Below are positions 3,001 to 35,197 of a stretch of DNA of 42,708 nucleotides, piece after piece. Where the stretch lies: sequence record QB031384.1; one strand, given 5' to 3'. The notes beneath the pieces were generated by a model. The model saw only the letters and a program-made list of their open reading frames with translations. It was not told the DNA's origin and ran no database searches. The number at the start of each line of letters is the position of its first letter. Position 1 is the stretch's first letter. Both the position numbers and the translations under genes were made by a program. This stretch comes from a phage.

Positions 3001-3251
3001 TTAATAAAGGCAGCGCCTTCTGAGAACATGATGTAAAGAAACTCTTTAGCAGTGCGACGTACAATCAGTACAGTGCTCTCTGCATCGAGAGGCTTGTCAA
3101 AGCGGATGCGCGTATCACTGTCCCAAGTAAAATCAAATACCTCTTCACGGTTCACGTACAAGTAAATGTAGGAACGGTCGAGATAGTTGATCTCTACTGG
3201 GACAGTCTGTGCACCAGCTGGTAGAATTTGTTCTTGCCAGCTATAGGCCAT
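3..3251 (-). CDS. Tail fiber / tailspike: N-terminal T7 gp17-like adaptor, central Asp-box (BNR) beta-propeller glycosidase-like region, C-terminal intramolecular chaperone (peptidase S74-like)
   Basis: 1082-aa ORF. N-terminal region carries the tail-fiber motif FRIINLAAGKDATDAVNKSQLD. Central region has Asp-box-like motifs SGDDGQTWTM and STNSGLTWEY. C-terminus has TSDGTLK ... HFGVIAQQVRDVL, typical of autocleaving chaperone domains. Last gene of the structural module. Confidence 0.8.
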   Translation of the reverse strand: MAYSWQEQILPAGAQTVPVEINYLDRSYIYLYVNREEVFDFTWDSDTRIRFDKPLDAESTVLIVRRTAKEFLYIMFSEGAAFIKENLDTQNTQFLHLAQELVEGRSIEGFFGTINMNGFRIINLAAGKDATDAVNKSQLDEVSTRVDNIEGAFNGVTSSYPMYFNTTEPTKEFRIALNFTKAAVYINGVCQTPGYSYTIRDNTVILADPVPAGTHVFMRLGEDVLEGGYATTESLAALSNALTRIDGPEVNPEYYRPHWRDSFDVRGWGVAGDAVTDDTAALQAMLAAAVHNQYIDGKGLTFKVTTLPDLSRFRNAAFKYERLAGQPLTYVSEGYFEAGLTKITDTPFYNAWTQDKSFVYDNVIYVPFMAGERHGVQNLHVAWVRSGDDGQTWTMPEWLTPIHPNYASGVNYHCMSMGVSNNRLYMLVETRNLSDARMVRAEMWSRPMPYARRPTGGISTVAGDNFATVVLPMHGLKVGDTINFSNSGVTGVSGNTVVRTVVDANTITVPLTNAAASTLTNAGVTWSFGTRFWDCQWEVTLLPGIAYSTNADLAVTETHSFTALEGNAVAVGYHNGDVSPRRLGILYFPDVYNNPGVFERRTVSQEYANDASEPCIRYYDGELYLTTRGTSATSAGSTLARSTNSGLTWEYLRFPNKVHNSNLPFAKVGDELYIFSSERAANEWEADTPDNRYNGNYARTFMCKVNVRNWPSSLDEVQWFNVTDQIYQGNIVNSSVGVGSVCVKDGWLYYLFGGEDFLSPWSIGGNSAKRWYVQDGHPTDLYSYRIKVGPQQHVSRDFKYGAAPNRTVPVSMGVDGLRHVSAPMVFDESVQVNSLRVTGTGHNGIPAVRSEVLLDGDYGQIYKSVPTDNPAQQRLILGGGSGNSAASGAIVQLYGSNHSTPNRAVLYATGGVYTQNNLLPYNDSSVALGGASNRWSTVYAATGTINTSDGTLKTAPEEVESALLDAWEDVHIISFKWLDSLATKGDAARTHFGVIAQQVRDVLVTNGLMEPEATSCKYGFLCYDEYPEMVEYDEEGNVSVVTPAGSRWGIRPDQMFFIEMLYQRRELARLKEQVKSLAHNKG

Positions 3252-3253
3252 GT

Positions 3254-10417: not shown

Positions 10418-12796
10418 TTAAATGCGTCTACGACGCTGATTGTAACGGAGGATATACGAGATATCCAGTATATTCATTTCCAACGTATCGTCAGTCATGA
10501 AAGTTACTTCTGTTGTACCTGAGTTAGTGCGGCAAGGTATAATTACGTTGCCAAGCTCATACCGAGGGGTAAGGCTCGGGGCTAAATCCTGAGAGTTCAG
10601 AATCAGTCCTGAGTAATCCCCTTCATTATTAACCCCGCGTGCCGTATCAAGTACCTGAACATTGAAGACACCAGACTTACGCGCAGCTACATCTAAACGC
10701 AGAAGACGTACATGTCCTGAGCCAACCAAGTTGTCGTTCTGGTCCTTAATCATTGGAGGGGTAATAGTGAATGAACTCGGAATACGGAAGCCACAATAAT
10801 ACAGGCCATCACGAACCCCGCGTACTACTGTACCTACGTCCCCGTCGTACGAGCGTACACCTACCGAGTCAGTTGCGATAGTAGAGGCCTCAGTAAAAGC
10901 TAATGCTAGCTTAGTACTGTAATCCCCACCCCGTAAGTGCTCTGGTACTGTGAACTTCCCGCCAGATACCTGCACAGCTATACGCGCATCCATATAAGGT
11001 ACGTCATACAACCCATCAGCTACGAAGCCCTCACGAGGGTCAATAGTCTGGACCTGTACTTGCCCTGAGCTAGGGTTACGTGTAAACAGGTACATTACCT
11101 CAGATTGACTATGTACGCTCAAGACTTCCTGCTGGAATGTCCACTGGTGCCAAGCAGCCTGTGACTTGCCTTCGTTATCCCATAAGTACTCATGCACAAG
11201 CAGCGCGTTACGATTACCGCTGTACTGGATAAATCCAATGTTAGTTACCGAGCTTAGTACCATCTTCATTATACGACCGGGTATATATCTAGGCAGGTGC
11301 GCTGTGGCATCTGTAGATGTATACTGCGATGACGTATAAGGACTTGGCACAAACTCAAGCACCCCTGCATAAGCAGAGTTGCGTCGGTTAGGGTAGAGGA
11401 TAGTCTGCCCTGCTACAATTGGCACAATCCGGCTATCACATGAGAATTCTGAGGTTAAGCTTACGCTAGCATTACTGGGAGTAAGGGCACCACTACCTGG
11501 AACTACTGCTTGCATACTATCACCGAAGACTACTAAGTCACGGTTGAACTGCAACGCTGTACGGAATACAGAATCCTGTGCAGATGCAGAAGCAATATCT
11601 ATACGGTCAGTATCGAGCAACGAGGTTACTGTACTGCGGTAGAACCTAGTGTACAAGCCGGACGCTGATAAGCTAATACCTGCACCTGATAGCAGTACAA
11701 GCCTGCCTTGGAATGCAGCAATACCAGTAAGGTACCCGTTATCTACAAAGTAAGGATTAGCGTTAGTATCATCGTCACCTGACAGACGTCCCTCGAAATC
11801 ACGTACAATGATGTTATCATCTGCTGCTAGTTCAAGCGGCATGTTAGAGATGCGGGAAATGCTATTATAACCGCCTACCTCTGTCCAAGCACGGGTGCTG
11901 TAATTGAACTGGTACCATGTACTATCTGAACCTGCGCGACCAACTGCGCATAGCGCCCCGTTAGCAGATGCAGGTAAGGATGCAGGAAGGTCAGATTCCT
12001 GACTTACTCGGGACTGGTTGGAAACAGATGCATATGTAGAGCCTGACGAAGTAGTTACTACACATCCCGGGAGGTTGTTGATAAAGATAGTCGTACCTGC
12101 GGCATCTATCTCTACAGTGCCACCAGCCGCTTCTACCCTACTACGAATACCTGCCACGGTCTGACCATCTACAGAAGATGCAGAACCATTTACCAGCAAC
12201 CCAATGATGCGACCAGAGGTAGCTTTGCTTGGGTCATCATTATTACCGGGTAAGGTGTACGAGGTAGATATAACCCCGCCGTTGTGAGTTACGGTAATAT
12301 TCCATTCCTTACCTGCAAGCACTGTCGTAATGAGACGGAAGAAACCACTGTTATTCGGATTCAGCTTACCTGTATTGTCACGGGTAATAACAGGCCGTTG
12401 CTCAGTATTCAGGATGTATGTCAATCCGCCTACGCTAGCTGTCTGGATAGATGTAGCGCCTATACTAGCCAGAAGGTATGCGTGATTGCCTGAGTTAACT
12501 ACCTGACCTGTATTCTTACCTAAAAGGTACCAATCGCCTGTAGCTGTATTAATTACGAGGTGACGCCCGTCAGTACCGCGCTCTACATAAGAGGTAAAGA
12601 GCTGACCTGATAAAGGTGCAGTGATACCTGTACTGTTATTAAGAAGAACAGCACCCGGGCGGCGTCGGATACTAGTTACAGGGTCAGAGAGCATGTTCAC
12701 CTGAGACCCTAATTGTCCCGGCTTACGCTCACGGGGAATCTGTTGCGATACTCCCTGCAATAAGCTAGGGATAGTTCCTTCCAAGGAATTAGCCAT
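10418..12796 (-). CDS. Tail tubular protein B (T7 gp12-like)
   Basis: 792-aa ORF (T7 gp12 is about 794 aa), immediately downstream of the tail tubular A-like gene with stop/start overlap. Confidence 0.7.
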   Translation of the reverse strand: MANSLEGTIPSLLQGVSQQIPRERKPGQLGSQVNMLSDPVTSIRRRPGAVLLNNSTGITAPLSGQLFTSYVERGTDGRHLVINTATGDWYLLGKNTGQVVNSGNHAYLLASIGATSIQTASVGGLTYILNTEQRPVITRDNTGKLNPNNSGFFRLITTVLAGKEWNITVTHNGGVISTSYTLPGNNDDPSKATSGRIIGLLVNGSASSVDGQTVAGIRSRVEAAGGTVEIDAAGTTIFINNLPGCVVTTSSGSTYASVSNQSRVSQESDLPASLPASANGALCAVGRAGSDSTWYQFNYSTRAWTEVGGYNSISRISNMPLELAADDNIIVRDFEGRLSGDDDTNANPYFVDNGYLTGIAAFQGRLVLLSGAGISLSASGLYTRFYRSTVTSLLDTDRIDIASASAQDSVFRTALQFNRDLVVFGDSMQAVVPGSGALTPSNASVSLTSEFSCDSRIVPIVAGQTILYPNRRNSAYAGVLEFVPSPYTSSQYTSTDATAHLPRYIPGRIMKMVLSSVTNIGFIQYSGNRNALLVHEYLWDNEGKSQAAWHQWTFQQEVLSVHSQSEVMYLFTRNPSSGQVQVQTIDPREGFVADGLYDVPYMDARIAVQVSGGKFTVPEHLRGGDYSTKLALAFTEASTIATDSVGVRSYDGDVGTVVRGVRDGLYYCGFRIPSSFTITPPMIKDQNDNLVGSGHVRLLRLDVAARKSGVFNVQVLDTARGVNNEGDYSGLILNSQDLAPSLTPRYELGNVIIPCRTNSGTTEVTFMTDDTLEMNILDISYILRYNQRRRRI

Positions 12797-13627: not shown

Positions 13628-14620
13628 TTACGCAGTGGTGAAGCTAACGATAGCTGCGGTATCTGGACGACGGTTACCAACAGTATACATCGCATAGCAA
13701 TCCAGTACGTTAGCGAAGTTCAGTTCATCGTCCCAAATACGGGCGGTGAACGGTTGAGCTTCAACAGTTACCAGAGTCTTAGACTTGCTGAAGGTTACCA
13801 TACGGCACTTTGCATCAGCAGCAGTAACGGTATAAGCAGAACCCAGCGGATGCGGACCAGCGCCCGGGAACTCTACAGCCTCAACAACCGGGATACCGTT
13901 CATTACAACTACGCGACGCTGTTTGAAACCGTCATCGTTACTGTTACCAAAGTCACGGTCGAATAGTTTCGGGTGTTCCAGCAACTGAGAATAGATCTCA
14001 GTAGATACCAGAGTAACCATGTCAGACAGCGGAACCTTACGCTTAATCAGCTCGTCAACACCTTTACGGTGTGCTTCGTTGATTGCTACTGCGTTAGCTT
14101 CACGACCAGTTACGCCAACCGGGTTAGCAGTCAGCGAGGCAGCAATCTCAATACCATCAGAGAATGCAGGTTTCAGATGCTCAGGAGCAACCCAAGTACG
14201 GCCTTTAATCAGCTGAATCAAGTGTGCCTGGTCAAAGGTCTCTGCGAACTCATAACCGTTGTTCTGACCCATCTCGGTAAGGAAGTCTGGAGCAGTCCAA
14301 TCATCCTGATAGTCAATCGGGTTACGGATGTACAGCACGGTATCAACAACGATAATCATCTTATCGTTACGAACCGGAGTCGGAGCCAGAGCTTCACCAG
14401 ACTGACGGCCTTTAACTGAAGAAGTATTCAGGCGGTCAATACGATAAGTGTTAGACTGGTTCTGAGTAGAACGCTGAGAGGACAGGCCCAAGAACAGCGC
14501 TTGGTATTCGAAGCGAGAATCTACTTCTGATTGATACACTTCCAGATGGATGTCAGTATCAGACTGCGCGCCAGCCCAATGTGGCTTAGTTGAGTTACCA
14601 GTGTATGCAGTATTAGCCAT
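13628..14620 (-). CDS. Major capsid protein (T7 gp10-like)
   Basis: 330-aa ORF preceded by AGGAAA SD, located between the scaffold gene and the terminator. Call is by synteny and size. Confidence 0.8.
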   Translation of the reverse strand: MANTAYTGNSTKPHWAGAQSDTDIHLEVYQSEVDSRFEYQALFLGLSSQRSTQNQSNTYRIDRLNTSSVKGRQSGEALAPTPVRNDKMIIVVDTVLYIRNPIDYQDDWTAPDFLTEMGQNNGYEFAETFDQAHLIQLIKGRTWVAPEHLKPAFSDGIEIAASLTANPVGVTGREANAVAINEAHRKGVDELIKRKVPLSDMVTLVSTEIYSQLLEHPKLFDRDFGNSNDDGFKQRRVVVMNGIPVVEAVEFPGAGPHPLGSAYTVTAADAKCRMVTFSKSKTLVTVEAQPFTARIWDDELNFANVLDCYAMYTVGNRRPDTAAIVSFTTA

Positions 14621-14743
14621 GTTATGTATTTCCTATATATAGAGTGATTGAGAGTTTAAGTTTAGTTGCCGGAGGTGGGCAGGGAGTATTAAGCAGAAAG
14701 CCACACGGAGTGTACTGTGCTTCCACATCTCCAGCAGGTTTAA

Positions 14744-15568
14744 TTACAGCCCAGCACGCTTACCAGCAGCGCGACGGTCTAACAGGTCTTGGTAGCGACC
14801 AGCGAAAGCTTGAGACTGCAAGCTGCGGTTACCTACCTCTTTGCGAAGTTTAGAATATTCTTCGCTGAATGCCTTAGCACTAAGAGCACCAGCAGAGCCA
14901 GGTGCGCCTTGAAACTTAGGATTAATAGTCGCCATTACGCCGAGGCTTTGACAAGTCTCGATAACGAACTTAGCAGCCCCTGCGATATCGCCTGAATCGG
15001 CGAGTGCACGTGCAGCCTTACGGATGTGCTCGGGAGCCTTAGCATTAAATACCTGCGTCGCTGCATCCCATTGCTCTTTACCGCCAGCCATTTCATAAGC
15101 CGAATTAACTGCCTTCTGAACCCGACCTACTTGGTCTTCCAGATACGCCTTAGCTAGCATCTCTGCATATGCAGCATGTTCACCGAAACGTTCTTGGATG
15201 AATGCCTTATCAATTAAGTTAGCATCACCATACTCAATAGCCTTACCGATAGCACGGACCATGTCCGAGTCATTCAGTTTAGATACTTGTTTGAGCATAG
15301 CAATACCGGCATCAATTGCTGGATTACCTGTCTCTGCTAATTCAGTCTGAGCTGAAGCAGGAGTCGGAGCCTCTGATTTATTAAGTAGCTTAGACAGCGC
15401 TTCAATATCAAGCGTAGCAGGAGCAGGAGCTACTGCGACCTCAGGCACACCTTGCATGTTTGGTGCCTTAACGTTTGCGCCAGGGCCCGGAATCTTGGGG
15501 CCGTCGACATTCTCAACAACTATAGTTGCTGGAACTTCGCTTGGTACTGCTGAAATATCATCTGACAT
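14744..15568 (-). CDS. Scaffolding protein (T7 gp9-like)
   Basis: 274-aa Ala-rich, acidic, helical-looking ORF between portal and capsid genes. Confidence 0.65.
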   Translation of the reverse strand: MSDDISAVPSEVPATIVVENVDGPKIPGPGANVKAPNMQGVPEVAVAPAPATLDIEALSKLLNKSEAPTPASAQTELAETGNPAIDAGIAMLKQVSKLNDSDMVRAIGKAIEYGDANLIDKAFIQERFGEHAAYAEMLAKAYLEDQVGRVQKAVNSAYEMAGGKEQWDAATQVFNAKAPEHIRKAARALADSGDIAGAAKFVIETCQSLGVMATINPKFQGAPGSAGALSAKAFSEEYSKLRKEVGNRSLQSQAFAGRYQDLLDRRAAGKRAGL

Positions 15569-18581: not shown

Positions 18582-21032
18582 CTAACAGAAAAAGAATCTG
18601 CTACCCAGTACCTGCTTAAGGTCCAAAGAACCTTTAGCTGGTAACTCCAGCCCTTCTAAGTCTGCCCCACAAGCTACTGCCGCATCAGTAATCTCCTGAA
18701 GTACGTCATGCTCTGTGTACAGACGTAGGAACTGTTCGCGGATAGCAGAATGCATTTCATCTACATCGCAAGCGTGAGTAGCTACCGAGTCGTGGATAGG
18801 CATAATGTCTCCTGAGAATGCAGAGATAGTCATACCTAAGTGAGTAGCGTCTAAGCTGTGCACCCAATTAGGGGAGATGCCTGACTTAGCCTTACGCTTG
18901 TTGTTTACATTGTAGTTACGGTTGTACACCAGCAGGTGTGTCAGGTTCATGCTCTTAACAGAAACCTTAGTCTCTTCTGATTCAGTGTATCGGTTGATAA
19001 CCAGCCCGCCTAACGGAGTCTTCCATTGAAGGTGGTTGGCTGCTGGTACACGATAGCACAGTGACTGTACATATTTCATCGCCTCAGTAGCTGCTGGGTT
19101 AGCGTCCTCTACTGCTGCCTTCATGCGAGTACTCAGATATCCTGCCAGCTTGAACAGGCTGTACTCTTCCGTTCCTTCGTAACCTTCTTCCTGTGCAGAC
19201 TGAAGGATGTACTCGGAGCAAGAGCGCACAGTAGCCGAGTATACGTGTGTCATGCATGGACGTTTAGCCATGCTGCGGGTAATCTCGTTCCCACGCCAGT
19301 AGTTAGCCTGCACTACGAAGTCAGGATTGTCCAGGTCCATGATGACCTTAGCATCAGTACGGCGCTTAACGTCCATGTACATATCTGCTTTCTCTTCGTT
19401 ACCCTCCCAGAACAGGTTAACTAAACGACCACCTACTGAGTCACGCAGTAACGCGGCGAAGTGCTGCTGCCCCGAGTTGGTTGCATCCATAGCCACCGGA
19501 ATGCGTGATTCGTATGTTTCCGGGCTGCCAGAGTCAATAGCAGCAACGAGGTCGATGCAGGCTGCCAGAAAACACCACGGGCTGTCTGCACTCCTGAAAG
19601 CTTCTGCATTAAACGGATTTGATGCGACAAGTCGAATCTGCTCGATATTAGCATCAGTCCAAGCTGCACGCTTTTCGAATAAGGCTTTATCATAACCATA
19701 GCAGGTAGCGACGTGTACCTTGAGCCAAAACAAACCCCGCTCTCCCAGAGGCTTTGCCCGACTGAAGGAGAGCAAAGCTTTCTGCATGTCAGGACCCTGA
19801 GGGTGCAGGCTTGATTTGAAGTACAGGCGGTAGCGCCAGTCAACGCAGGTTGGGAAGTACAGTTCTTTCTCATCCTTAAACTCCTCGCAGAGTTGAACCA
19901 GTGTCACCATGGAACGCAACTTACTTACGCGAGTACGCTCTTGGATGTACCAGTTACGCATATTCATCTTCCAAGTCTGGAAGTCATCCATCTGGCGCTC
20001 GGTGTAATCCTCTTTAGGTACACCGTCCAGATACCACTCAGGTCTAGGGGCTGGGTAGGAACTAGGCATACCTGTCGTTACACCTTCACGACGTGCTTGG
20101 TTAAGCAGATTAAGTACTTCCTTGTTGATAACGTAAGGCACTTCCTGCGCCTTGTTCAGCATATCCTTCAGTCCCTCTGCCTGCTTGAATGCCTCTGCTA
20201 CTTCACGTTTCATTGCACGAGTAATCTGGTGATTATGGTAAGTACCGCGCTTGCAAGTGCTGCTTAGAAGGTATCCACCTGAGAACATGTCTACATGCTT
20301 CTGCGGAGGTACAATCATTGGGGGTTTAATCTCTACGGTATCTGCGTCCAGTACTAAATCGCCTAGTACCTCAGCTAATACTTCAGACGGTGCCAAGTAT
20401 TGTAGCTGGGTTGCGTCAGTGCTCTTATCCCACGTGAACAGGCCTGTTTCCCACACAGGTTGTAGGATTAATTTACCTACTGCTACACACTGAGAAGCGG
20501 ACCAAGGTTCATGCCCGTAGTGCACGTTCTCTGCTGAAGCACGTAAGGTCTTCATAATATGCGACTGACTTGTAGTGTTACGTTCTTTCAAGTACTCAAA
20601 TACACGATTCATATATGCGGGTGCAACTACTTCTAGCTGTATGCTAAGGACCTCGGCTTGAACCTGGCGCCCTAGGTTAGCCAGCAAAGCTTGTGCAGAT
20701 GTACGGCTTCCACCAGACTCTTTAAGGAAGAGGGAGTCAATGCATTTAGTGAGTGCCATTACAGCGAGAACGTCAGTAGGGACCAGACGGATAATGCTGC
20801 GGTACTTACCGCCGACGCCTGCGGTCTTCTGTACCTTCATCTCGTCAATGCCTTGAGCAACAGTATCATAGGCTGCTGCAATCATGCGACTTACCTTAGG
20901 CAGGCTGCTTAAGTTACCTGCTGCCAGTGCCTTCTGCACCAGCTCACGCGACTTGTTCAAGCTGCGCGTACGGTAATCTTTCTCTAACTGTAACTGGCGT
21001 TCTACTTTCTGTTCTAATGTTTCGTGTTGCAT
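18582..21032 (-). CDS. DNA-directed RNA polymerase, single-subunit (T7-like)
   Basis: 816-aa ORF. Motif A DATNSGQQHFAALLRD, motif B RSMAKRPCMTHVYSAT, motif C IHDS. GAGGG SD 4 nt upstream. Sits directly before the structural genes. Confidence 0.9.
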   Translation of the reverse strand: MQHETLEQKVERQLQLEKDYRTRSLNKSRELVQKALAAGNLSSLPKVSRMIAAAYDTVAQGIDEMKVQKTAGVGGKYRSIIRLVPTDVLAVMALTKCIDSLFLKESGGSRTSAQALLANLGRQVQAEVLSIQLEVVAPAYMNRVFEYLKERNTTSQSHIMKTLRASAENVHYGHEPWSASQCVAVGKLILQPVWETGLFTWDKSTDATQLQYLAPSEVLAEVLGDLVLDADTVEIKPPMIVPPQKHVDMFSGGYLLSSTCKRGTYHNHQITRAMKREVAEAFKQAEGLKDMLNKAQEVPYVINKEVLNLLNQARREGVTTGMPSSYPAPRPEWYLDGVPKEDYTERQMDDFQTWKMNMRNWYIQERTRVSKLRSMVTLVQLCEEFKDEKELYFPTCVDWRYRLYFKSSLHPQGPDMQKALLSFSRAKPLGERGLFWLKVHVATCYGYDKALFEKRAAWTDANIEQIRLVASNPFNAEAFRSADSPWCFLAACIDLVAAIDSGSPETYESRIPVAMDATNSGQQHFAALLRDSVGGRLVNLFWEGNEEKADMYMDVKRRTDAKVIMDLDNPDFVVQANYWRGNEITRSMAKRPCMTHVYSATVRSCSEYILQSAQEEGYEGTEEYSLFKLAGYLSTRMKAAVEDANPAATEAMKYVQSLCYRVPAANHLQWKTPLGGLVINRYTESEETKVSVKSMNLTHLLVYNRNYNVNNKRKAKSGISPNWVHSLDATHLGMTISAFSGDIMPIHDSVATHACDVDEMHSAIREQFLRLYTEHDVLQEITDAAVACGADLEGLELPAKGSLDLKQVLGSRFFFC

Positions 21033-26018: not shown

Positions 26019-26591
26019 TTACATTGCCCAATCAGGACGCTCACCCTTACCGCAGTAAAAGTCAATCAGGTCTAGTAAGCGCGGATAATACTTCAGCGAA
26101 CTCTTACCGTCCATTTCCGCAACCTGGCGCCTACTGAAGCTGCGCCACTCTGCTGCCGTATGCTGCTGACATCCTGCACGCACTATGTCCTTACAGATAC
26201 TAATGAAGTACGTTTCTCCGTATATAATGACAGTCTTGGCGCCGCGCAGGTCAGCGCGGCGCAGGTTAGCGCCGCGCAGGTCAGCGTAGCGCAGGTCAGC
26301 GTCGCGCAGGTCAGTACCGGTCAGGTCAGCGCCGCGCAGGTCAGCGATGCGCAGGTCAGCGTCGCGCAGGTCAGCGCCGCTCAGGTCAGCGCCGCGCAGG
26401 TCAGTACCGGTCAGGTCAGCGCCGCGCAGGTTAGCGTAGCGCAGGTTAGCGCCGCGCAGGTCAGCGTCGCGCAGGTCAGTGCTGCTCAGGTCAGCGTCGC
26501 ACAGGTCAGCGTCGCGCAGGTTAGCGCGGCGCAGGTCAACGCTGTGCAGTCTTCCTAACTTATATATTTCGCAGATTTCTTGATAGTTCAT
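26019..26591 (-). CDS. Pentapeptide-repeat protein 1 (about 21 tandem A(D/N)LxG-type pentapeptides plus 70-aa non-repeat C-terminal domain)
   Basis: 190-aa ORF with an unbroken run of [15 protein letters not shown] pentapeptides after the N-terminal cap [12 protein letters not shown]. Strand chosen because all flanking genes are minus-strand. Confidence 0.8.
26238..26549. repeat. Tandem array of about 21 copies of a 15-bp unit (CGCAGGTCAGCGNCG-like) encoding the pentapeptide repeats
   Basis: Periodicity is visible directly: gcgcaggtcagcg recurs every 15 bp, varying mainly at 2-3 positions per unit. Confidence 0.9.
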
Positions 26592-29940: not shown

Positions 29941-30089
29941 TTCCAATTACTCCGACGTGATTTATTAATGGCTGCCCGTACAATCATCTCGCTACTGTCC
30001 AGCGTGTAGCGCCTAACCTGCTTACGATTGTTAGCAATTGCTCTGATGACTTCGTAGTCTGCCTCAGTAATATCACTTTGCTTTAGCAT
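29937..30089 (-). CDS. Small basic ORF (50 aa), not in ORF track
   Basis: ATG at 30089-30087 preceded by GGTGAGGTG; stop overlaps the DNA polymerase ATG. Translation MLKQSDITEADYEVIRAIANNRKQVRRYTLDSSEMIVRAAINKSRRSNWK. Confidence 0.35.
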   Translation of the reverse strand: MLKQSDITEADYEVIRAIANNRKQVRRYTLDSSEMIVRAAINKSRRSNWK

Positions 30090-30234
30090 TGTTATTCACC
30101 TCACCTTTAAGGCCAGCTAGATGGGATTTAAGGCACTCGACTAACTCAACAATAGTATCCTCATCCAGTTCGAACATTCCTGAATCCCCCTGCTCCAACT
30201 CTATTAATTTTAAAGCTGCTTCATGTAATGTCAT
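30073..30234 (-). CDS. Small acidic ORF (53 aa), not in ORF track
   Basis: ATG at 30234-30232 preceded by a near-consensus SD, AGGAGGT, at about 7 nt. Translation MTLHEAALKLIELEQGDSGMFELDEDTIVELVECLKSHLAGLKGEVNNNAKAK. Confidence 0.45.
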   Translation of the reverse strand: MTLHEAALKLIELEQGDSGMFELDEDTIVELVECLKSHLAGLKGEVNNNAKAK

Positions 30235-30287
30235 TGCCTTACCTCCTAGTTAGTTGACACTGCGCCCCTTGCGAGACGCAGTAGCTA

Positions 30288-31574
30288 CTACGCTAAGCCT
30301 TCTGAGAACCGACACGTACCTCCGTTAAACTCTACCTGAAATTGAACATACGCTGGACTGCCTGACAGTCCTAGCTTATTTTTTGGTGTCGAGATTCCAC
30401 GTACCGTAGCCATATCCGGCCTATCGTTAACATTCATGCGACCCATCATAATACACAAATCTAAAGCCCCTTGAATTCCTATCTTAGAACCTTTCAGCGC
30501 TGTCAGCGGGGGGTACATACAGTCATACCCTTCGACTGACAGCTGCACAGTTCCTAAGATTATACAGTCGTGTTCGCATCCTAAGATTCGTAACTGCTGC
30601 CACTTCTGCTCTAATGCCTGGTATTCAGATTCAGCGTTCCCGCCTTTGATGTTACTTACCATGTCCACCACCAGCACAGCCGGACGCATCTCTTCCAGAA
30701 GGGTAGAGATTTGCCCCAAGCTCATACTGTGGGCATCCTTAACGCGAATCTTATCCCACGTCCCGACCTTCTTCAGATACTTGTCCGCGAACTTACCTTC
30801 CTTATGCTGCTCAACAATCTGCTGCAACGTAAGCCCAGTAGCTGCTTGATAGATACGCGGAACAGTACGCTTAGCTAGTGATTCGTTCACTAACCAGAGT
30901 ATCGGTCTGTCAGAGTAGATGTCAGGGCTTTGATGCATCTGCTCTGCAAGCGAGACAACGGTAGCAGCAAGCAGACTCGTCTTTCCCGCGTCCACTGGCG
31001 CAGCAATAGCGACGCAATCACCACCACGCAGGCCGCGAATGTTCCGAGATAACTCAGAGAATACAGTAAGCTGTAACCCGCCGCTTTCATCAGTAGCTGC
31101 AAGGATATCATCTACACCTCCGTCTTCCCATTTCAATAATGAATCATTAGCAGCTGCTACGCCTGAGTACTTACGCTCAAGCGCTTTAGCTTCTTGTACG
31201 AAATCTATTTCCCCTCCTGCCTGATACTTACTTACAAGCGCAGCCATCTCACCTGAGTAAGCCAGCTCGTTCAGAGTCTTAACTGTACCAGCTACAAGCT
31301 CGTTAGGTACGTTCTGGATAGTCTTAAGCATATGCTTCAGGATATCCATCTGCTCTTTCTGAAGATGCGTACCGCGCATATCCAAGAGCGTATTCATCAT
31401 CTCAAAGTTAACTTCGTTAGAGTCAGGGTAAGTTGCAAAGTACAGTTGCAGCCAACCAATCATCGCTACTGTATCAGGTGCTAACAGAGACTTAGGTGTC
31501 TGCTCATACAACCTGTCCATTATCTTACGTTCACAGAAAGCGCGTAGTAAATTAAAGTCCATCAAGTGCTCCAA
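30288..31574 (-). CDS. Replicative DNA helicase (DnaB/T7 gp4 helicase-domain-like)
   Basis: 428-aa ORF with Walker A AAPVDAGKTS and Walker B-like VLVVDMV. Lies between primase and DNA polymerase. Confidence 0.8.
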   Translation of the reverse strand: MEHLMDFNLLRAFCERKIMDRLYEQTPKSLLAPDTVAMIGWLQLYFATYPDSNEVNFEMMNTLLDMRGTHLQKEQMDILKHMLKTIQNVPNELVAGTVKTLNELAYSGEMAALVSKYQAGGEIDFVQEAKALERKYSGVAAANDSLLKWEDGGVDDILAATDESGGLQLTVFSELSRNIRGLRGGDCVAIAAPVDAGKTSLLAATVVSLAEQMHQSPDIYSDRPILWLVNESLAKRTVPRIYQAATGLTLQQIVEQHKEGKFADKYLKKVGTWDKIRVKDAHSMSLGQISTLLEEMRPAVLVVDMVSNIKGGNAESEYQALEQKWQQLRILGCEHDCIILGTVQLSVEGYDCMYPPLTALKGSKIGIQGALDLCIMMGRMNVNDRPDMATVRGISTPKNKLGLSGSPAYVQFQVEFNGGTCRFSEGLA

Positions 31575-32322
31575 GTATTTGGCTGCATTGAGCAGCCTTT
31601 GGGTCTACGTTCAGATGTCTATCATGCACGGGCACGAAGGGCTTAAGTTGCTTAGTAATTGAAACCGTGCCGTTCCAACCTGCACGGTCATCGTCTAACA
31701 TACAGATTACTGGCTTACCTTCTTTAATAAGTTGGGCCTTAAGCCCAAGCGGAAGCTTCGTCCCAAGCAAAGCTATTGCCTGAGCAGTCTGTGAAGAATA
31801 CTTCTCCAAGACCTGCTGAACCTTCAGCGCTGAAAGGTAGTCCTCGGTCAGTATCGTTATGGTTCCAGTATTCCCAAGCTGCACCCACTGTAATGACTTC
31901 CCTAGCATCACCCACTTCGGATGCTGGTACTCGTGCAGTGCTCTTGCTATGTAACTTCCCGTTGATAATTTCCACACTAACCTCTTGTATTGTTCTGAGT
32001 AATAAACGTCGCCGACCATATCAGGCCAGATGCCTTTCTGTATTAAGAATCCGTATAGGAACTGCTGAAGCCCTACGTCCAGTTCAGGCAGCGGCTTCAG
32101 GTCCTGAGGGGCGGCTAACTCACGCCCCAGCACTTCTGGTACTGCTAATTGAGCGTACTGCTTACGCTCTGAATGATATGACTTGCATCTGAAGCAAGAG
32201 CAAGTCCACTTATCTGGCTCGTTCCTGATTACTGCTGCTGCTGTTTTACCGCAGCATCGGAATCTTTCAGTTTGGCCAACAGCCAATCTCTGTGCTGCTC
32301 TAAGCCATTGCTCGTTAGCCAT
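31552..32322 (-). CDS. DNA primase (zinc-ribbon + TOPRIM)
   Basis: 256-aa ORF with an N-terminal Cys cluster (CCGKT ... CSCFRC) and TOPRIM acidic motifs (LTEDYLSA, MLDDDRAG). Confidence 0.75.
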   Translation of the reverse strand: MANEQWLRAAQRLAVGQTERFRCCGKTAAAVIRNEPDKWTCSCFRCKSYHSERKQYAQLAVPEVLGRELAAPQDLKPLPELDVGLQQFLYGFLIQKGIWPDMVGDVYYSEQYKRLVWKLSTGSYIARALHEYQHPKWVMLGKSLQWVQLGNTGTITILTEDYLSALKVQQVLEKYSSQTAQAIALLGTKLPLGLKAQLIKEGKPVICMLDDDRAGWNGTVSITKQLKPFVPVHDRHLNVDPKAAQCSQILGALDGL

Positions 32323-32501
32323 GATTCTATTAACTCCTTAACGTTATCACTCGTAACGAATACCGTACTGCATGCAGGGTTATCCTCAAATCCGTGCAGC
32401 TGGTCTATACGGTAGATACTGCTACTCCCTGTCTTGATAGGGGAAATCTTTAAGTTGTGCTCAACGAAGTTCATTAGATACCTCTGTAGGATGTCTGCCA
32501 T
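32229..32501 (-). CDS. Hypothetical protein (90 aa)
   Basis: ORF-track ORF that overlaps the primase 5' end by 94 nt in another frame, which weakens the call. Confidence 0.35.
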   Translation of the reverse strand: MADILQRYLMNFVEHNLKISPIKTGSSSIYRIDQLHGFEDNPACSTVFVTSDNVKELIESWLTSNGLEQHRDWLLAKLKDSDAAVKQQQQ

Positions 32502-32803
32502 GCATAATACTCAATGCAAGCAGCCTTAAACGCCTGCTTAGCGCCTTCATACCCCAGCTGCTGCAACTGCCTTACTATATCGAAATTGATGCGTCGCAGG
32601 ACCTCTGAGGCCCTTTCAGCATCATACTTATAATAACCTACCAACAACCGCATACCTTCCTTAGTATCGTAGTCCCTGCACCATTTTAAAGGGCAGAGCT
32701 TACGCAGTTCAATCGGTACGTCCTTTAACGTCTTAAGGCCTAAGCTGCTCTGGCTCTCGAGCATACGCCAGTACTGCTCTGTTACTTCTTCTACTGGTAA
32801 CAT
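32474..32803 (-). CDS. Hypothetical protein (109 aa)
   Basis: ORF starting about 10 nt after the stop of pentapeptide-repeat protein 2. No motif recognised. Confidence 0.5.
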   Translation of the reverse strand: MLPVEEVTEQYWRMLESQSSLGLKTLKDVPIELRKLCPLKWCRDYDTKEGMRLLVGYYKYDAERASEVLRRINFDIVRQLQQLGYEGAKQAFKAACIEYYAWQTSYRGI

Positions 32804-32813
32804 GCCTAGCTCC

Positions 32814-33350
32814 TTAGATACTAACCCAATCAGCGACGCGCAGGTCAGCGTCGCGCAGGTCAGTGCCGGTCAGGTCAGCGCCGCGCAGGTTAGCGCCGCG
32901 CAGGTTAGCGCCAATCAGGTTAGCGTCGCGCAGGTTAGCGCCGCTCAGGTCAGTGCCGCGCAGGTTAGCGCCGCGCAGGTTAGCGCCGTGCAGGTCAGCG
33001 CTGCGCAGGTCAGCGCCGCTCAGGTCAGCGCCGCTCAGGTCAGCGATGTTCAGGTCAGCGTAGCGCAGGTCAGCGCCGCGCAGGTCAGCGCCGCTCAGGT
33101 CAGCGCCGCGCAGGTTAGCGCCAATCAGGTTAGCGTCGCGCAGCTTAGCGTCGCTCAGGTCAGCGACGCGCAGGTCAGCGTCGCTCAGGTCAGCGTAGCG
33201 CAGGTCAGCGCCGCTCAGGTCAGCGCCGCGCAGGTCAGCGTCGAGCAGGTTAGCGCGGCGCAGGTCAGCGCCGCACAGGTCAGCGCCGCACAGGTCAGCG
33301 CCTTCCAAGGATTCTAACTTGTATTTATTACAGATATTGTCATAAGTCAT
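32814..33350 (-). CDS. Pentapeptide-repeat protein 2 (about 32 tandem pentapeptides; paralogue of 26019-26591)
   Basis: Unbroken A(D/N)L(R/S/C)G-type run that ends at the stop codon. Preferred start is the internal ATG at 33350 (GAGGT SD 8 nt upstream; cap MTYDNICNKYKL matches [12 protein letters not shown] of protein 1). The ORF track extends it to 33401. Confidence 0.8.
   Translation of the reverse strand: MTYDNICNKYKLESLEGADLCGADLCGADLRRANLLDADLRGADLSGADLRYADLSDADLRVADLSDAKLRDANLIGANLRGADLSGADLRGADLRYADLNIADLSGADLSGADLRSADLHGANLRGANLRGTDLSGANLRDANLIGANLRGANLRGADLTGTDLRDADLRVADWVSI
32827..33302. repeat. Tandem array of about 32 copies of the same 15-bp unit (CGCAGGTCAGCGNCG-like)
   Basis: Same 15-bp periodicity and unit sequence as the array at 26238-26549, on the same strand. 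Confidence 0.9.
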
Positions 33351-33360
33351 ATTAGTAACC

Positions 33361-33597
33361 TCAGTTAATTTTAATATTAAAACGTGCACAATACCCTTCA
33401 AGGGTCATCCCTACTTTAGCTGCTTTAAGACTGTAAGCTAACTTAAGAGCTTCCTTAGCGTCATGCTCACGAGCCAGCTTCTCAATCGTTACTTCATCAT
33501 TACGCATCAGAATCATTTCGGGGTTCCGGTTAATCATTTCTGCATCTCCAGTTTGAAAAGGGCCATTGCAGCGTTCCAGGCGAAACGCGGGTTGCAT
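33361..33597 (-). CDS. Hypothetical protein (78 aa)
   Basis: ORF-track ORF in the early/middle region. No motif recognised. Confidence 0.45.
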   Translation of the reverse strand: MQPAFRLERCNGPFQTGDAEMINRNPEMILMRNDEVTIEKLAREHDAKEALKLAYSLKAAKVGMTLEGYCARFNIKIN

Positions 33598-33658: not shown

Positions 33659-33871
33659 TCATTCTAAATTCCTCTGTAAGTAATACATGTATACTTCACG
33701 AGCTCGCATTTTAGCGTAATCTTCGCAATGCCCTCTCTTAATCGCAGCAAGGTAAGTTTCGGTAGCCGCCTTCCGAGCGCATGTCTTTACATAAGAGTTA
33801 AACCAGTTATTAAAGCCCATCATTTTGTAATCCTCTGTAGAAGTAAGTTTGCTGACGCTGACGTTTCTCAT
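33659..33871 (-). CDS. Hypothetical protein (70 aa)
   Basis: ORF-track ORF. Its 5' end overlaps the SD-supported small ORF at 33800-33976, so the true start may be an internal Met near 33823. Confidence 0.4.
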   Translation of the reverse strand: MRNVSVSKLTSTEDYKMMGFNNWFNSYVKTCARKAATETYLAAIKRGHCEDYAKMRAREVYMYYLQRNLE

Positions 33872-33976
33872 TAAGGTAGGTGCTAGCTTCGTTAGCTGCC
33901 CCGCCTGTCAGGAATTCGAAAAGCTTGAACATCTCAGCTTCACGTTGACGCTCAACCTCAACTGTCTGGCTAGTTT
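33800..33976 (-). CDS. Small ORF (58 aa), not in ORF track
   Basis: ATG at 33976-33974 preceded by AAGGAG SD at 8 nt. Translation MVGQTSQTVEVERQREAEMFKLFEFLTGGAANEASTYLNEKRQRQQTYFYRGLQNDGL. Confidence 0.4.
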
Positions 33977-33985
33977 GACCGACCA

Positions 33986-34312
33986 TTATTTAACTCCTTT
34001 CGGTGTAGAAGACTTAGATTTAAAATAACTGTTAATGCGCTGGCAAGTCTTGCTACTAGGGCGGCAAGTGCGTTCACCACGTTCCTTGTACTCAGCGCTC
34101 TTAGCACTGCGCTGAGAGGCTTTATCTGACCAGTCATTACTAGGAATGGCTTCTGCTTTATAAGTATGCGTCATGAGCTTCTTAAGAGCTTTACGGGCCT
34201 CAGTACCCTCAGGCTTCTGTGCCAGCTGCACTAATTCACTACGATTAGCTTCTAACTTCTTAGCATCTTCAACAGAGATACCGAAACGACGTGCTTGAGC
34301 TTTAGCGTTCAT
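33986..34312 (-). CDS. Hypothetical basic protein (108 aa)
   Basis: First gene after promoter-leader cassette R2, with AAGGAG SD 6 nt upstream. Lys/Arg-rich, possibly nucleic-acid binding. Confidence 0.5.
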   Translation of the reverse strand: MNAKAQARRFGISVEDAKKLEANRSELVQLAQKPEGTEARKALKKLMTHTYKAEAIPSNDWSDKASQRSAKSAEYKERGERTCRPSSKTCQRINSYFKSKSSTPKGVK

Positions 34313-34405: not shown

Positions 34406-34528
34406 GGACGGGAGGAACCGCTCGAGCCTGTTCTATCTACCCTAGGCTCTCAGAAGGGCAATCACTTAGCGTTGTTGATTAACGTCCTGCTATGAATCCA
34501 ACTATACTCCTATTTTATTTTGTGTCAA
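34406..34528 (-). promoter_or_regulatory. Promoter-leader cassette R2: sigma70-like promoter (TTGACA - 16 bp - TATAGT) plus conserved structured leader
   Basis: -35 at 34523-34528 and -10 at 34501-34506. Leader has a hairpin (AATCA/TGATT), GCCCTTCTGA, a GAGCC/GGCTC stem around GGGTAGATA, and GAGCGGTTCCTCCCGT. Confidence 0.55.
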
Positions 34529-34531
34529 CAC

Positions 34532-35197
34532 TTATTTTGAAATTCTTTCTGAAATATACACAAATCCCTTAGGAGTAAACTGCGCAGAGATGCGTGCAAC
34601 CTTTAATCTGTCAAAAGTAACCTTATGCTCCCCACGTTTAGCCTTTAGCCAGCCTGCACTGAATGTCCACGTACCATTCAATTTATACATATGCTTATTC
34701 TCTACCAGCCAACTTCTTACTTCAGCTTCAGTGTAAGATAAGAACTTACACATCTCACGGAAAGTCATAAGACCTGTAGTATCTACATAGTTACCTACGA
34801 ACTCAACCTTAGGCGCTGCTTCTTCTACCTTCTCTTGGAGCTTCAAGTTCTCTTCTGCGTAGTTCTGGAGAAGTCCCAGCAACTGCTTAGGGTCATGCAA
34901 GTTAATAGCAGGCTGACGTTGCTTACGCTCCAGCTCTTCCCAACGGTCAATGATACGGGCGCGCAGTTCTACATTGTAGCCAGAGATAATAAGTAATGTA
35001 TCACGTTTAGTTAAATGCCACTCGCGCTGTTGCTGATTATTATATCCGGCGTAAGTTACTGATTTACTTGATTGGCTCAAAACTGAGCCAATGCTTTCAA
35101 TGTCCCTAAGTACGTTCTTATGCAACTTACCAGTCAGCTCAGCAATCTCGCGGCTAGTCATGGTCTGTACATCAGTAGTAGTAGTTAAATCAAACAT
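34532..35197 (-). CDS. Rha-family regulatory protein with KilA-C/antirepressor-like C-terminal domain
   Basis: 221-aa ORF. N-terminal MTSREIAELTGKLHKNVLRDIESI matches the Rha signature as recalled. C-terminal half resembles antirepressor KilA-C domains. Confidence 0.55.
   Translation of the reverse strand: MFDLTTTTDVQTMTSREIAELTGKLHKNVLRDIESIGSVLSQSSKSVTYAGYNNQQQREWHLTKRDTLLIISGYNVELRARIIDRWEELERKQRQPAINLHDPKQLLGLLQNYAEENLKLQEKVEEAAPKVEFVGNYVDTTGLMTFREMCKFLSYTEAEVRSWLVENKHMYKLNGTWTFSAGWLKAKRGEHKVTFDRLKVARISAQFTPKGFVYISERISK

What the first reader, a model, noticed from the sequence alone, without database searches (positions are those of the whole stretch)
32814..33401. Second, longer pentapeptide-repeat paralogue immediately upstream of the replication module
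About 32 pentapeptides with the same N-terminal cap as protein 1 (MTYDNICNKYKL versus [12 protein letters not shown]), but no C-terminal domain: the repeat runs straight into the stop codon. Two paralogues of different length suggest different targets or a dosage effect, and its place just before primase/helicase/polymerase suggests a role at the onset of replication.
Basis: partly seen in the sequence, partly recalled or inferred. Interest (0 to 1): 0.8.

Follow-up and report, generated by a model that had tools for sequence, protein, structure and literature searches.

The report
Bare pentapeptide-repeat protein in a coliphage
A real but optional phage gene encodes a short, acidic rod made almost only of 33 five-residue repeats; it is a tail-less relative of a widespread phage repeat-protein family whose function nobody has tested, so it is a modest lead, not a discovery.

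Summary
On the minus strand, 33350..32814 encodes a 178-aa protein: a 12-residue cap, 33 pentapeptides A(D/N)LXX, then the stop codon. The finding's coordinates (to 33401) are the mechanical TTG ORF. The true start is the ATG at 33350, which has a GAGG ribosome-binding site.

The window is a Slopekvirinae K1 coliphage, 98.5% identical to GenBank phage vB_EcoP_P64441. That record already annotates both genes as pentapeptide repeat-containing proteins.

- **Fold:** AlphaFold2 gives an uninterrupted eight-coil solenoid (pLDDT 91), acidic (pI 4.4, net -11), with no loops and no C-terminal helix.
- **Family:** It shares its cap and its exact repeat codon set with protein 1. Protein 1 belongs to a widespread phage family of cap, variable repeat array (4 to about 31 pentads) and a conserved 70-aa C-terminal domain. 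This protein lacks that domain.
- **Distribution:** It is an optional cassette, present in 2 of 7 related genomes and brought in by recombination.
- **Selection:** All 40 variant codons among its repeats are non-synonymous, so the surface appears to be under selection and the gene is not decaying.
- **Membership:** It fails the Qnr/MfpA tests.

Function is untested anywhere. My best guess, at low confidence, is an early DNA-like decoy against a host DNA-binding protein, probably a defence enzyme. Interest is moderate to low.

The parts
32814..33350 (-). PRP2 coding sequence: 178 aa plus TAA stop. It comprises a 12-aa cap, 33 pentapeptides and a terminal Ile.
   Evidence: Pfam PF00805 E=4.3e-58; AF2 pLDDT 91.4
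33315..33350 (-). N-terminal cap MTYDNICNKYKL (motif M-x-Y-x-x-I-C-x-x-Y), shared with protein 1 and five other phage or metagenome proteins.
32820..33314 (-). Array of 33 pentads (about 8.25 solenoid coils). The consensus unit is GCT GAC CTG CGC GGC. TRF places the 15-bp tandem repeat at 32830..33302.
33359..33362 (-). Shine-Dalgarno GAGG, 8 nt upstream of the ATG. It overlaps the TGA stop of the upstream DUF7267 gene (33363..33361).
   Evidence: read from the sequence
33361..33480 (-). Divergent 3' end of the DUF7267 gene, 51-60% identical to relatives against 86-96% just upstream. This is the left recombination junction of the imported segment that carries PRP2.
33361..33597 (-). Upstream neighbour, a DUF7267 / phrog_5136 protein. 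In five relatives it abuts the downstream neighbour directly.
32474..32803 (-). Downstream neighbour, a 109-aa phrog_6167 protein. GGAG precedes its ATG, 10 nt after the PRP2 stop.
34501..34528 (-). Best sigma-70-like promoter upstream (TTGACA-16-TATAGT, 11/12 matches). No terminator-like site lies between it and PRP2.
   Evidence: consensus match only; the overall count is not above the shuffles
26019..26591 (-). Protein 1 (PRP1), the paralogue: the same cap, 21 pentads and a 73-aa conserved C-terminal domain (phrog_37032).
32802..33317 (+). Antisense shadow ORF (171 aa, AQVSA repeats), not a gene. The equivalent ORF in PAS7 was mis-annotated as 'modular polyketide synthase'.

Best explanation
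**Shown**
- PRP2 is an intact accessory gene in the early/middle, host-polymerase-transcribed part of a Slopekvirinae coliphage.
- It encodes a rigid, acidic, uninterrupted eight-coil pentapeptide-repeat beta-solenoid, about 40 A long by textbook geometry.
- It carries the N-terminal cap of the phage 'cap - repeat array - C-domain' family but lacks that family's C-terminal domain.
- It lacks the C-terminal dimerisation helix of Qnr/MfpA-type proteins.
- It arrived as a recombination cassette.
- Its exposed residues are kept different from rung to rung while silent sites are homogenised.

**Inferred, low confidence**
- It acts as a protein-binding decoy early in infection.
- Its DNA-like negatively charged rod would occupy the DNA-binding site of a host DNA-processing protein.
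- The most probable target is a restriction or other DNA-sensing defence enzyme, so incoming and replicating phage DNA would be spared.
- On this reading it is optional and pays off only on hosts that carry the matching target.
For: - **Fold and charge:** pLDDT 91.4 with one strand every five residues from 14 to 174. Foldseek TM 0.87 to Np275/276. pI 4.41, net -11, against net -2 for PRP1.
- **Accessory status:** present in the window and P64441 only. It is absent from PAS7, an IMG/VR contig and three wastewater relatives, where the flanking genes abut.
- **Imported by recombination:**
- **Expression signals:** the GAGG ribosome-binding site, tight operon packing and an 11/12 sigma-70-like promoter 1.15 kb upstream.
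- **Selection on the surface:** 40 of 40 variant codons are non-synonymous (P = 3e-7; 16 distinct variant types). Ala and Leu core codons are invariant.
- **Neighbourhood of relatives:** P22-like orf232 lies between ral and gene 17 in the PL operon. PMBT5 gp09 lies two genes from a Lar-like restriction-alleviation gene. The Edwardsiella PVN06 homologue lies two genes from an orphan cytosine methyltransferase. Ralstonia Autographiviridae carry a pentapeptide-repeat gene in the early region before primase.
- **Precedent for the principle:** DNA mimicry by pentapeptide-repeat proteins is established for MfpA (review PMC8145042).
Against: - No experiment on any phage pentapeptide-repeat protein was found.
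- The text of a catalogue of 268 anti-defence proteins does not mention a pentapeptide or solenoid member.
- McbG and QnrB did not inhibit BREX (PMC7261183).
- The closest solved structures are cyanobacterial or designed consensus solenoids of unknown function, not DNA mimics.
- The ADLRG consensus places an acidic and a basic stripe on each face.
- The face and axial charge polarity is not statistically significant (permutation P about 0.1).
- The neighbourhood associations are three anecdotes, not a statistic.
- The family's conserved C-domain, presumably needed for its function, is missing here.
Confidence: 0.35

Rival explanations
1. Gyrase/topoisomerase IV modulator in the manner of Qnr, MfpA, AlbG or McbG. 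The solenoid would bind host gyrase, either to protect it from poisons (toxin-antitoxin toxins, microcins) or to tune supercoiling for phage replication.
For: Most pentapeptide-repeat proteins with a proposed biochemical target are reported to act on gyrase (reviews PMC8145042, PMC10886550). PRP2 is about the size of an MfpA monomer (eight coils), is acidic and sits just before the replication genes. Phages are known to encode small gyrase inhibitors such as Igy and Gip.
Against: NCBIfam Qnr scores 68 bits against a cut-off of 240, and MfpA 68 against 360. Identity to QnrB1 and MfpA is only about 25% and to AlbG about 16%. There is no C-terminal helix for the dimer that every gyrase-targeting member uses, and no Qnr loops. 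Five relatives replicate without the gene.
Confidence: 0.15
2. Partner or competitor of protein 1. Lacking the effector C-domain, PRP2 would bind the same target as the cap-array-C-domain family (the phage's own protein 1 or the orf232-type protein of a resident prophage) and so titrate or regulate it.
For: The two proteins share the cap and the repeat codon set. The only architectural difference is loss of the C-domain. PRP2 occurs only in genomes that also have protein 1 (window and P64441).
Against: The surfaces differ (net -11 vs about -3 on the solenoid). Co-occurrence rests on only two genomes. No target is known for either protein.
Confidence: 0.1
3. Functionless remnant: a truncated copy of a protein-1-type gene that happens to remain open because the repeat unit has no stop codon in two of three sense frames.
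For: It lacks the family's conserved C-domain. It is present in only 2 of 7 relatives. Repeat arrays slip and break, as in the frameshifted PAS7 orthologue. The nearest homologue is 98.9% identical, so there is no between-genome test of selection.
Against: The array stays in the A(D/N)LXX frame through all 33 pentads. It has its own ribosome-binding site and a tidy end. There are zero synonymous against 40 non-synonymous variant codons, with invariant core codons. The fold prediction is high-confidence.
Confidence: 0.1
4. Exclusion of competing phages or other host manipulation unrelated to DNA mimicry, with the repeat domain acting as a generic protein-binding scaffold as in HetL or PipB2.
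For: In phage L the family member lies in the PL operon between ral and gene 17. From my memory of the P22 map, not checked here, that is the slot where P22 carries its exclusion gene sieB. NCBIfam shows comparable partial matches to HetL and PipB/PipB2.
Against: The phage is virulent. There is no membrane or effector domain. No PADLOC defence model matches.
Confidence: 0.08
5. The 15-bp tandem array is a DNA-level element (iterons or an origin next to the replication genes) rather than a gene.
For: There are 31.5 tandem copies 0.5 kb upstream of the primase gene.
Against: Variation is codon-structured (30, 17 and 3 differences at codon positions 1, 2 and 3). Core codons are invariant. There is a cap, a ribosome-binding site and protein homologues. 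A second array lies inside protein 1. The array is GC-rich (65%), not AT-rich. Five relatives lack it.
Confidence: 0.02

Closest known systems
Protein 1 of this phage and its family (phrog_7713 + phrog_37032; Salmonella phage ST64T/L orf232, ST104 orf19, epsilon34 gp42; Edwardsiella, Acinetobacter, Rheinheimera and Caulobacter phages)
   Same: Both have an N-terminal cap followed by a consensus ADLRG-type array with lineage-specific single-codon usage, and both are phage-borne early genes. The Slopekvirinae members share the M-x-Y-x-x-I-C-x-x-Y cap and the identical 15-nt unit.
   Different: PRP2 lacks the conserved ~70-aa C-terminal domain (RAGCQxHT..EWR..MDG..FYPRLLDIIDFY.GKG.RP.W) that defines the family. 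Its solenoid is also much more acidic.
Np275/Np276 fusion (PDB 2J8K) and the designed 'beta1' solenoids derived from consensus repeats
   Same: These are the best structural and sequence matches: 45-51% identity, TM 0.85-0.87, with uninterrupted consensus-type coils.
   Different: They are cyanobacterial or synthetic proteins with helical caps and no known function, so they say nothing about mechanism.
MfpA / Qnr / AlbG / McbG / EfsQnr (topoisomerase-interacting pentapeptide-repeat proteins)
   Same: They share the right-handed quadrilateral beta-helix of about eight coils and an acidic character. This is the only family in which a DNA-mimic mechanism is established (PMC8145042).
   Different: Identity to QnrB1 and MfpA is about 25%, and lower still to AlbG and EfsQnr (13-17%). 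The family HMM scores are far below cut-off. PRP2 has no C-terminal dimerisation helix, no loops A/B and no bulge.
Eggerthella phage PMBT5 gp09
   Same: It is a small phage pentapeptide-repeat protein (161 aa, 22 pentads) with only a short tail after the array, uses the same codon set GCT GAC CTG CGC GGC, and lies near a Lar-like restriction-alleviation gene.
   Different: It has a different, helical N-terminal cap, is nearly neutral (net -4) and comes from an unrelated siphovirus of an actinobacterium.
Ocr (T7 gp0.3) and ArdA, the classical DNA-mimic anti-restriction proteins
   Same: Both are early, acidic, elongated and dispensable. Ocr holds the comparable early position in an Autographivirales phage.
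   Different: The folds are unrelated and there is no sequence similarity. Ocr and ArdA are far more acidic, with carboxylates arranged along a DNA-like helix. No such pattern was demonstrated here.

Membership tests
Pentapeptide repeat protein superfamily (Pfam PF00805) | Tandem A(D/N)LXX pentapeptides in one register | tested here: met
   33 pentads; position -2 is Ala in 30/33, position -1 is D/N in 31/33, and the centre is Leu in 32/33. PF00805 E=4.3e-58.
Pentapeptide repeat protein superfamily (Pfam PF00805) | Right-handed quadrilateral beta-helix, four pentads per coil | tested here: met
   AF2 model with pLDDT 91.4 and one strand per pentad. Foldseek TM 0.87, rmsd 0.8 A to 2J8K. This is a prediction, not a solved structure.
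Qnr / MfpA topoisomerase-interacting PRPs | Family HMM score above the curated cut-off | tested here: not met
   NF033086 Qnr scores 68.4 bits against cut-off 240. NF000349 MfpA scores 68.1 against 360.
Qnr / MfpA topoisomerase-interacting PRPs | C-terminal alpha-helix mediating the functional dimer | tested here: not met
   DSSP finds no helix in the model, and the protein ends six residues after the last canonical pentad. The feature is as described in PMC8145042.
Qnr / MfpA topoisomerase-interacting PRPs | Loops A and B (Qnr) or a bulge/kink interrupting the helix | tested here: not met
   The five-residue strand periodicity is uninterrupted from residue 14 to 174.
Qnr / MfpA topoisomerase-interacting PRPs | Binds gyrase or topo IV and alters poisoning or supercoiling | not testable with these tools
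   This needs biochemistry or multimer co-folding.
Phage cap-array-C-domain family (phrog_7713/phrog_37032; ST64T orf232 type) | N-terminal cap M-x-Y-x-x-I-C-x-x-Y of the Slopekvirinae branch | tested here: met
   M1, Y3, I6, C7, Y10 and L15 are invariant in seven sequences.
Phage cap-array-C-domain family (phrog_7713/phrog_37032; ST64T orf232 type) | Conserved ~70-aa C-terminal domain | tested here: not met
   phrog_37032 matches PRP1 residues 100-189 (E=3.9e-38) but matches PRP2 only within the repeats. PRP2 stops at ADWVSI, and only 10 nt separate it from the next gene.
DNA-mimic anti-defence proteins (Ocr/ArdA-like, by mechanism) | Elongated surface with a DNA-like pattern of negative charge | tested here: inconclusive
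   Net -11, pI 4.41; face nets are -6, -3, -6 and +3. The polarity is not significant by permutation (P about 0.1), and Arg stripes are present.
DNA-mimic anti-defence proteins (Ocr/ArdA-like, by mechanism) | Relieves a defence system in vivo | not testable with these tools
   No experiment on a phage PRP was found in the literature searches.

The most novel reading that the evidence does not exclude
PRP2 would be the first pentapeptide-repeat anti-defence protein: a monomeric or tail-to-tail bare solenoid that mimics about 12 bp (24 bp as a dimer) of DNA and blocks a host restriction or other DNA-sensing immune enzyme. The whole hyper-variable phage cap-array(-C-domain) family would then be a length-tunable DNA-mimic toolkit, evolving by repeat slippage plus selection on exposed residues.
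Probability: 0.2. Interest if true: 0.7.

Novelty: new member of a known kind. Interest (0 to 1): 0.35.

Why it matters
Pentapeptide-repeat genes matched in 465 of 50,697 phage records in the collection searched here. They sit in early, host-interaction regions, and I found no functional study of any of them.

This locus offers a clean natural comparison. Close relatives differ by presence or absence of the gene, and a paralogue with the C-terminal domain lies in the same genome. That could be used to find out what phage solenoids bind.

If the target proved to be a defence system or gyrase, it would add a new structural class to phage counter-defence or host-takeover proteins. It would also explain why array length varies so freely.

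If nothing is found, this is simply one more annotated repeat protein of unknown function in a phage whose near-twin is already in GenBank.

Tried and rejected
1. **Whole-protein homology search.** It was swamped by generic repeat proteins (7,904 hits, best only 57% identical), so it says nothing about orthologues.
2. **Strict cap DNA pattern in IMG/VR.** All 28 hits were chance matches, none followed by repeats.
3. **Relaxed cap-plus-first-pentads pattern.**
   - IMG/VR: 0 hits.
   - 100,044 species genomes: 0 hits.
   - JGI metagenomes: 4 contigs; the three that reach a stop or run past the array carry a C-terminal domain, and the fourth (L037) runs off the contig inside the array.
   - No second 'bare' cap-type protein was found.
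4. **Cap-profile protein search.** It returned only short fragments of 80 aa or less, mostly Salmonella prophage genes broken at contig ends.
5. **C-domain word-index search.** It found 2 proteins. The full HMMER scan was needed.
6. **What the C-domain is.** There was no Pfam hit at E <= 10 and no credible PDB sequence match; the TPR hits are summed sub-threshold repeats. The single-sequence AF2 model of protein 1 was poor in that domain (pLDDT 44-78), so I did not fold-search it.
7. **Higher-order repeat structure, or a recent segmental duplication between the two arrays.** Identity is flat at about 0.83 at all lags, within and between genes. Rejected.
8. **Face-specific and axial charge polarity as evidence for mimicry.** Not significant.
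9. **Origin from E. coli chromosomes or prophages.** No blastn match in 5,426 complete genomes.
10. **PADLOC defence models.** No hit.
11. **The plus-strand ORF 32802..33317.** Rejected as an antisense shadow.
Full report
**What the window is.** All long ORFs lie on the minus strand. The segment 30000-36000 is 98.5% identical over its whole length to Escherichia phage vB_EcoP_P64441 (PQ847473; Autographivirales, Autoscriptoviridae, Slopekvirinae). That record carries an endo-N-acetylneuraminidase tailspike, so it is a K1-capsule coliphage. It already annotates two 'pentapeptide repeat-containing proteins' at the positions of the two genes discussed here.

The gene order on the minus strand runs as follows:
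- small early ORFs from about 37400;
- a Rha/KilAC protein (35197..34532);
- more small ORFs, then PRP2 and two small ORFs;
- primase (32322..31552), DnaB-like helicase and a split DNA polymerase;
- protein 1 (PRP1), phosphoesterase, nucleases and RNA polymerase (21032..18582);
- the structural genes.

**Checking the observation.**
- The ORF tool lists 32814..33401 (195 aa, TTG start).
A GAGG lies 8 nt upstream (33362..33359) and overlaps the TGA stop of the preceding gene.
- Six homologues with the same cap all start M-N/T-Y.
- The protein is therefore 178 aa: MTYDNICNKYKL, 33 pentads, then Ile and the stop.
- The P64441 annotation uses the longer ORF and is probably over-extended.
- Position -2 is Ala in 30 of 33 pentads, position -1 is Asp or Asn in 31 of 33, and the centre is Leu in 32 of 33.
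- Pfam PF00805 gives E = 4.3e-58. Tandem Repeats Finder gives 31.5 copies of a 15-bp unit at 84% identity.
- Protein 1 (26591..26019, 190 aa) has the cap [12 protein letters not shown], 21 pentads and a 73-aa non-repeat tail.

The description is correct apart from two details:
- PRP2 is the shorter protein with the longer array.
- Two small genes separate it from the primase.

**Structure.**
- AlphaFold2 without an alignment gives mean pLDDT 91.4 and pTM 0.86.
- One beta-bridge falls every five residues from 14 to 174. There is no helix, loop or bulge.
- The best solved matches are the Np275/276 fusion (2J8K, 45% identity, TM 0.87, rmsd 0.8 A) and the designed beta1 solenoids.
- QnrB1 and MfpA follow at about 25% identity, and AlbG at about 16%.
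- The protein is acidic (pI 4.41; 31 acidic and 20 basic residues; net -11), whereas PRP1 is nearly neutral (net -2).
- Read in the four-pentad register, the faces carry -6, -3, -6 and +3, and the first five coils carry all of the net charge.
- Shuffling pentad order reproduces such polarity about one time in ten, so I treat it as description only.
- From the known 4.8 A rise per coil of this fold, eight coils are about 40 A long, roughly 12 bp of B-DNA. This figure is inference from textbook geometry, not measured on the model.

**Which family it belongs to.** PRP1's tail is a conserved domain: phrog_37032, with no Pfam family even at E = 10.
- A full HMMER scan of 1.84 billion representatives finds 186 clusters with this domain. 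It is almost always at the C-terminus of proteins of 120-240 aa.
- In the 40 sequences I read, the usual layout is an N-terminal cap, a pentapeptide array of very variable length, and the domain. The domain consensus is G-E-x-Y-F-I...V-R-A-G-C-Q-x-H-T-x-x-E-W-R...M-D-G...F-Y-P-R-L-L-D-I-I-D-F-Y-x-G-K-G-x-R-P-x-W.
- A few members are stand-alone domains, and one has a different beta-helical repeat.
- tblastn finds the architecture in 140 phage records: P22-like Salmonella phages (ST64T/L orf232, ST104 orf19, epsilon34 gp42), and Edwardsiella, Acinetobacter, Rheinheimera and Caulobacter phages.

The particular cap M-x-Y-x-x-I-C-x-x-Y is rarer.
- It occurs in PRP1, PRP2, the PAS7 orthologue, P0123, P0121, a 50-aa fragment (P0282, a variant with V for I) and four metagenome contigs.
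- The DNA pattern finds it nowhere in IMG/VR or in 100,044 species genomes.
- Apart from PRP2, every cap-bearing protein whose end is on record (one carries a frameshift) has a C-terminal domain; the fragment P0282 and contig L037 break off too early to tell.

**Is PRP2 a paralogue of PRP1?** Yes, but not a fresh duplicate.
- Within each array nearly every amino acid uses a single codon. PRP2, PRP1 and the PAS7 orthologue share the same unit, GCT GAC CTG CGC GGC, with AAC for Asn (and AGC for Ser in PRP2 and PRP1).
- Other lineages each use a different single set: phage L uses GCC/GGT, contig L036 uses AGA/AGT/GGT, and L038 uses GCA/TTG/CGT.
- This indicates concerted evolution within a lineage and places PRP2 in the Slopekvirinae lineage.
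- The first 45 residues of PRP2 are only 51% identical to PRP1 and 53-60% identical to the other cap-bearing proteins.
- In-register nucleotide identity is a flat 0.83 at every lag, within and between the arrays. No recent segmental copy is visible.

**PRP2 is an optional, imported cassette.**
- In PAS7, an IMG/VR contig (L034) and three wastewater assemblies (S.Kent 1-2-1, ECO104 4-5-2, LM 4-14-1), the DUF7267 gene is followed within about 3-20 nt by the phrog_6167 gene. No PRP2 lies between them.
- Only the window and P64441 carry PRP2.
- Identity to the three relatives compared (L034, PAS7, S.Kent 1-2-1) is 80-96% up to about 33480. It falls to 51-60% over the last 120 nt of the DUF7267 gene and returns to 75-85% immediately after the PRP2 stop.
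- The incoming piece therefore carried a foreign DUF7267 3' end together with PRP2.
- PRP1 is itself variable. It is missing from the expected stretch downstream of the polymerase in S.Kent 1-2-1.
- At the syntenic site, PRP1 has 4 pentads in a Logan contig, 21 here, and about 31 in PAS7, where the gene carries a frameshift inside the repeats.
- Published comparisons report the same plasticity: a 15-bp indel between phages L and ST64T (PMC8022706) and a 375-bp in-frame deletion in Caulobacter phage GB2A (PMC11053796).
- Length difference by itself is therefore not evidence for different targets.

**Is it functional or decaying?** No between-genome test is possible, because the only orthologue differs at three nucleotides. 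The array itself is informative.
- Relative to the consensus unit, 40 codons vary and all 40 changes are non-synonymous. Differences fall 30, 17 and 3 at codon positions 1, 2 and 3.
- About 31% of random single-base changes would be silent, giving binomial P = 3e-7.
- Counting each of the 16 distinct variant codon types once, my own calculation of 0.69^16 still gives about 3e-3.
- Core codons (Ala -2, Leu 0) are essentially invariant. Variation sits at the three outward-facing positions.
- PRP1 shows the same bias (24 non-synonymous against 2 synonymous, P = 0.005).
- The simplest reading is that homogenisation erases neutral differences while selection keeps specific surface differences between rungs. 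That argues for a working protein.
- The caveat is that variants spread by duplication are not independent events.

**Expression context.**
- The strongest sigma-70-like site in the region (TTGACA-16-TATAGT, 11/12) lies at 34528->34501. No terminator-like hairpin sits on the minus strand between it and PRP2.
- The total number of promoter-like sites is not above the shuffled expectation.
- The phage RNA polymerase gene lies far downstream. Transcription by host polymerase early or in the middle of infection is therefore the natural inference, by analogy with phiKMV-like phages. This rests on general knowledge and was not tested here.

**Comparison with known systems.**
- *Qnr/MfpA-type membership fails on every testable feature.* HMM scores are 68 bits against cut-offs of 240 and 360. 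There is no C-terminal dimerisation helix and there are no loops.
- *The one NCBIfam model exceeded (Alr5209, 209 bits against 125) is not meaningful.* It is reached by summing four stretches of a 113-residue repeat profile.
- *Membership of the phage cap-array-C-domain family is partial.* Cap and array are met; the C-domain is not.
- *I found no functional study of any phage pentapeptide-repeat protein*.
- *A catalogue of 268 anti-defence proteins does not mention the fold*.
- *BFVD lists dozens of viral examples, none with a function*.

**Mechanism.** What is shown is the architecture, the accessory status and the selection signature. The rest is inference.

Circumstantial features that point to a host-interaction or counter-defence role:
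- patchy presence among close relatives;
- location in a mosaic of small early genes;
- an acidic rigid rod;
- fast-evolving exposed residues;
- relatives sitting next to ral and gene 17 in P22-like PL operons, near a Lar-like gene in PMBT5, near an orphan cytosine methyltransferase in an Edwardsiella phage, and in the early region before primase in Ralstonia Higashivirus.

My estimates for each reading:

| Reading | Probability |
|---|---|
| DNA-like decoy against a host DNA-binding defence enzyme | about 0.35 |
| Gyrase modulation | about 0.15 |
| Interplay with PRP1 | about 0.1 |
| Inert remnant | about 0.1 |
| Exclusion or another scaffold role | about 0.08 |
| DNA-level element | about 0.02 |

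The remaining probability, about 0.2, goes to roles not listed here.

Points against the favoured reading:
- there is no precedent for this fold among anti-defence proteins;
- McbG and QnrB fail to block BREX;
- the basic stripes sit beside the acidic ones;
- the family's conserved domain is missing.

**Verdict.** The finding is real and accurately described, and its paralogy claim is supported. Its functional suggestions are untested. The gene is a new member of a known but unstudied kind and is already annotated in a near-identical GenBank genome. Its value is as a tidy experimental entry point, not as a surprise.

Noticed in passing
L031 (PAS7, OQ921331) 3001-3746: The PAS7 orthologue of protein 1 is split by a frameshift inside the repeat array. 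Frame 1 reads cap plus about 17 pentads and then LTCAA...; the C-domain is in a separate 75-aa ORF. The antisense shadow ORF is annotated 'modular polyketide synthase'. This is either a sequencing or assembly slip in the repeats or a real pseudogene.
   Followed up: partly
window 26019-26246 (-) and proteins P0123-P0165: The ~70-aa C-terminal domain of protein 1 defines a family of 186 clusters with invariant G, C, W, M and D and a near-invariant Y-P-x-L motif. It has no Pfam model and no PDB relative by sequence. It is fused to arrays of 4 to about 31 pentads or to another beta-helix repeat, and also occurs alone. It is an uncharacterised phage domain worth a structure prediction with a proper alignment.
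   Followed up: partly
L043 (Eggerthella phage PMBT5) 2439-2924: gp09 of a siphovirus infecting a high-GC actinobacterium uses exactly the same repeat codons (GCT GAC CTG CGC GGC, AAC, AGC) as the coliphage arrays. This explains an 85% megablast hit between unrelated phages. Whether it reflects horizontal transfer or convergence is unresolved.
   Followed up: partly
window 26239-26542 and 32830-33302: Two direct-orientation arrays with the same 15-nt consensus lie 6.3 kb apart and flank the primase, helicase and polymerase genes. Their longest shared exact run is 41 nt. Recombination between them would delete the replication module.
   Followed up: partly
window 29946-30288 vs L001 (P64441) 11407-11832: P64441 has an HNH endonuclease gene (426 bp) between helicase and DNA polymerase, and another next to the exonuclease. 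The window has only about 340 bp between helicase and polymerase, so it appears to lack at least the first homing-endonuclease insertion.
   Followed up: no
window 33660-34020: This stretch, holding small ORFs including the 70-aa ORF 33659..33871, has no counterpart in the IMG/VR relative L034 (0% aligned). It is a second variable slot just upstream of the PRP2 cassette.
   Followed up: no
proteins P0274-P0355: Dozens of 'partial' pentapeptide-repeat proteins of 60-79 aa from Salmonella enterica assemblies appear to be prophage orf232-type genes truncated at contig ends. Short-read assemblies appear to break at these repeat arrays, so the family is likely under-counted in draft genomes.
   Followed up: no
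L001 (P64441) 14355-14942: The GenBank CDS for the PRP2 orthologue uses the upstream TTG (588 nt), overlapping the DUF7267 gene by about 40 nt. The ATG with GAGG, 51 nt downstream, fits the conserved cap better.
   Followed up: yes
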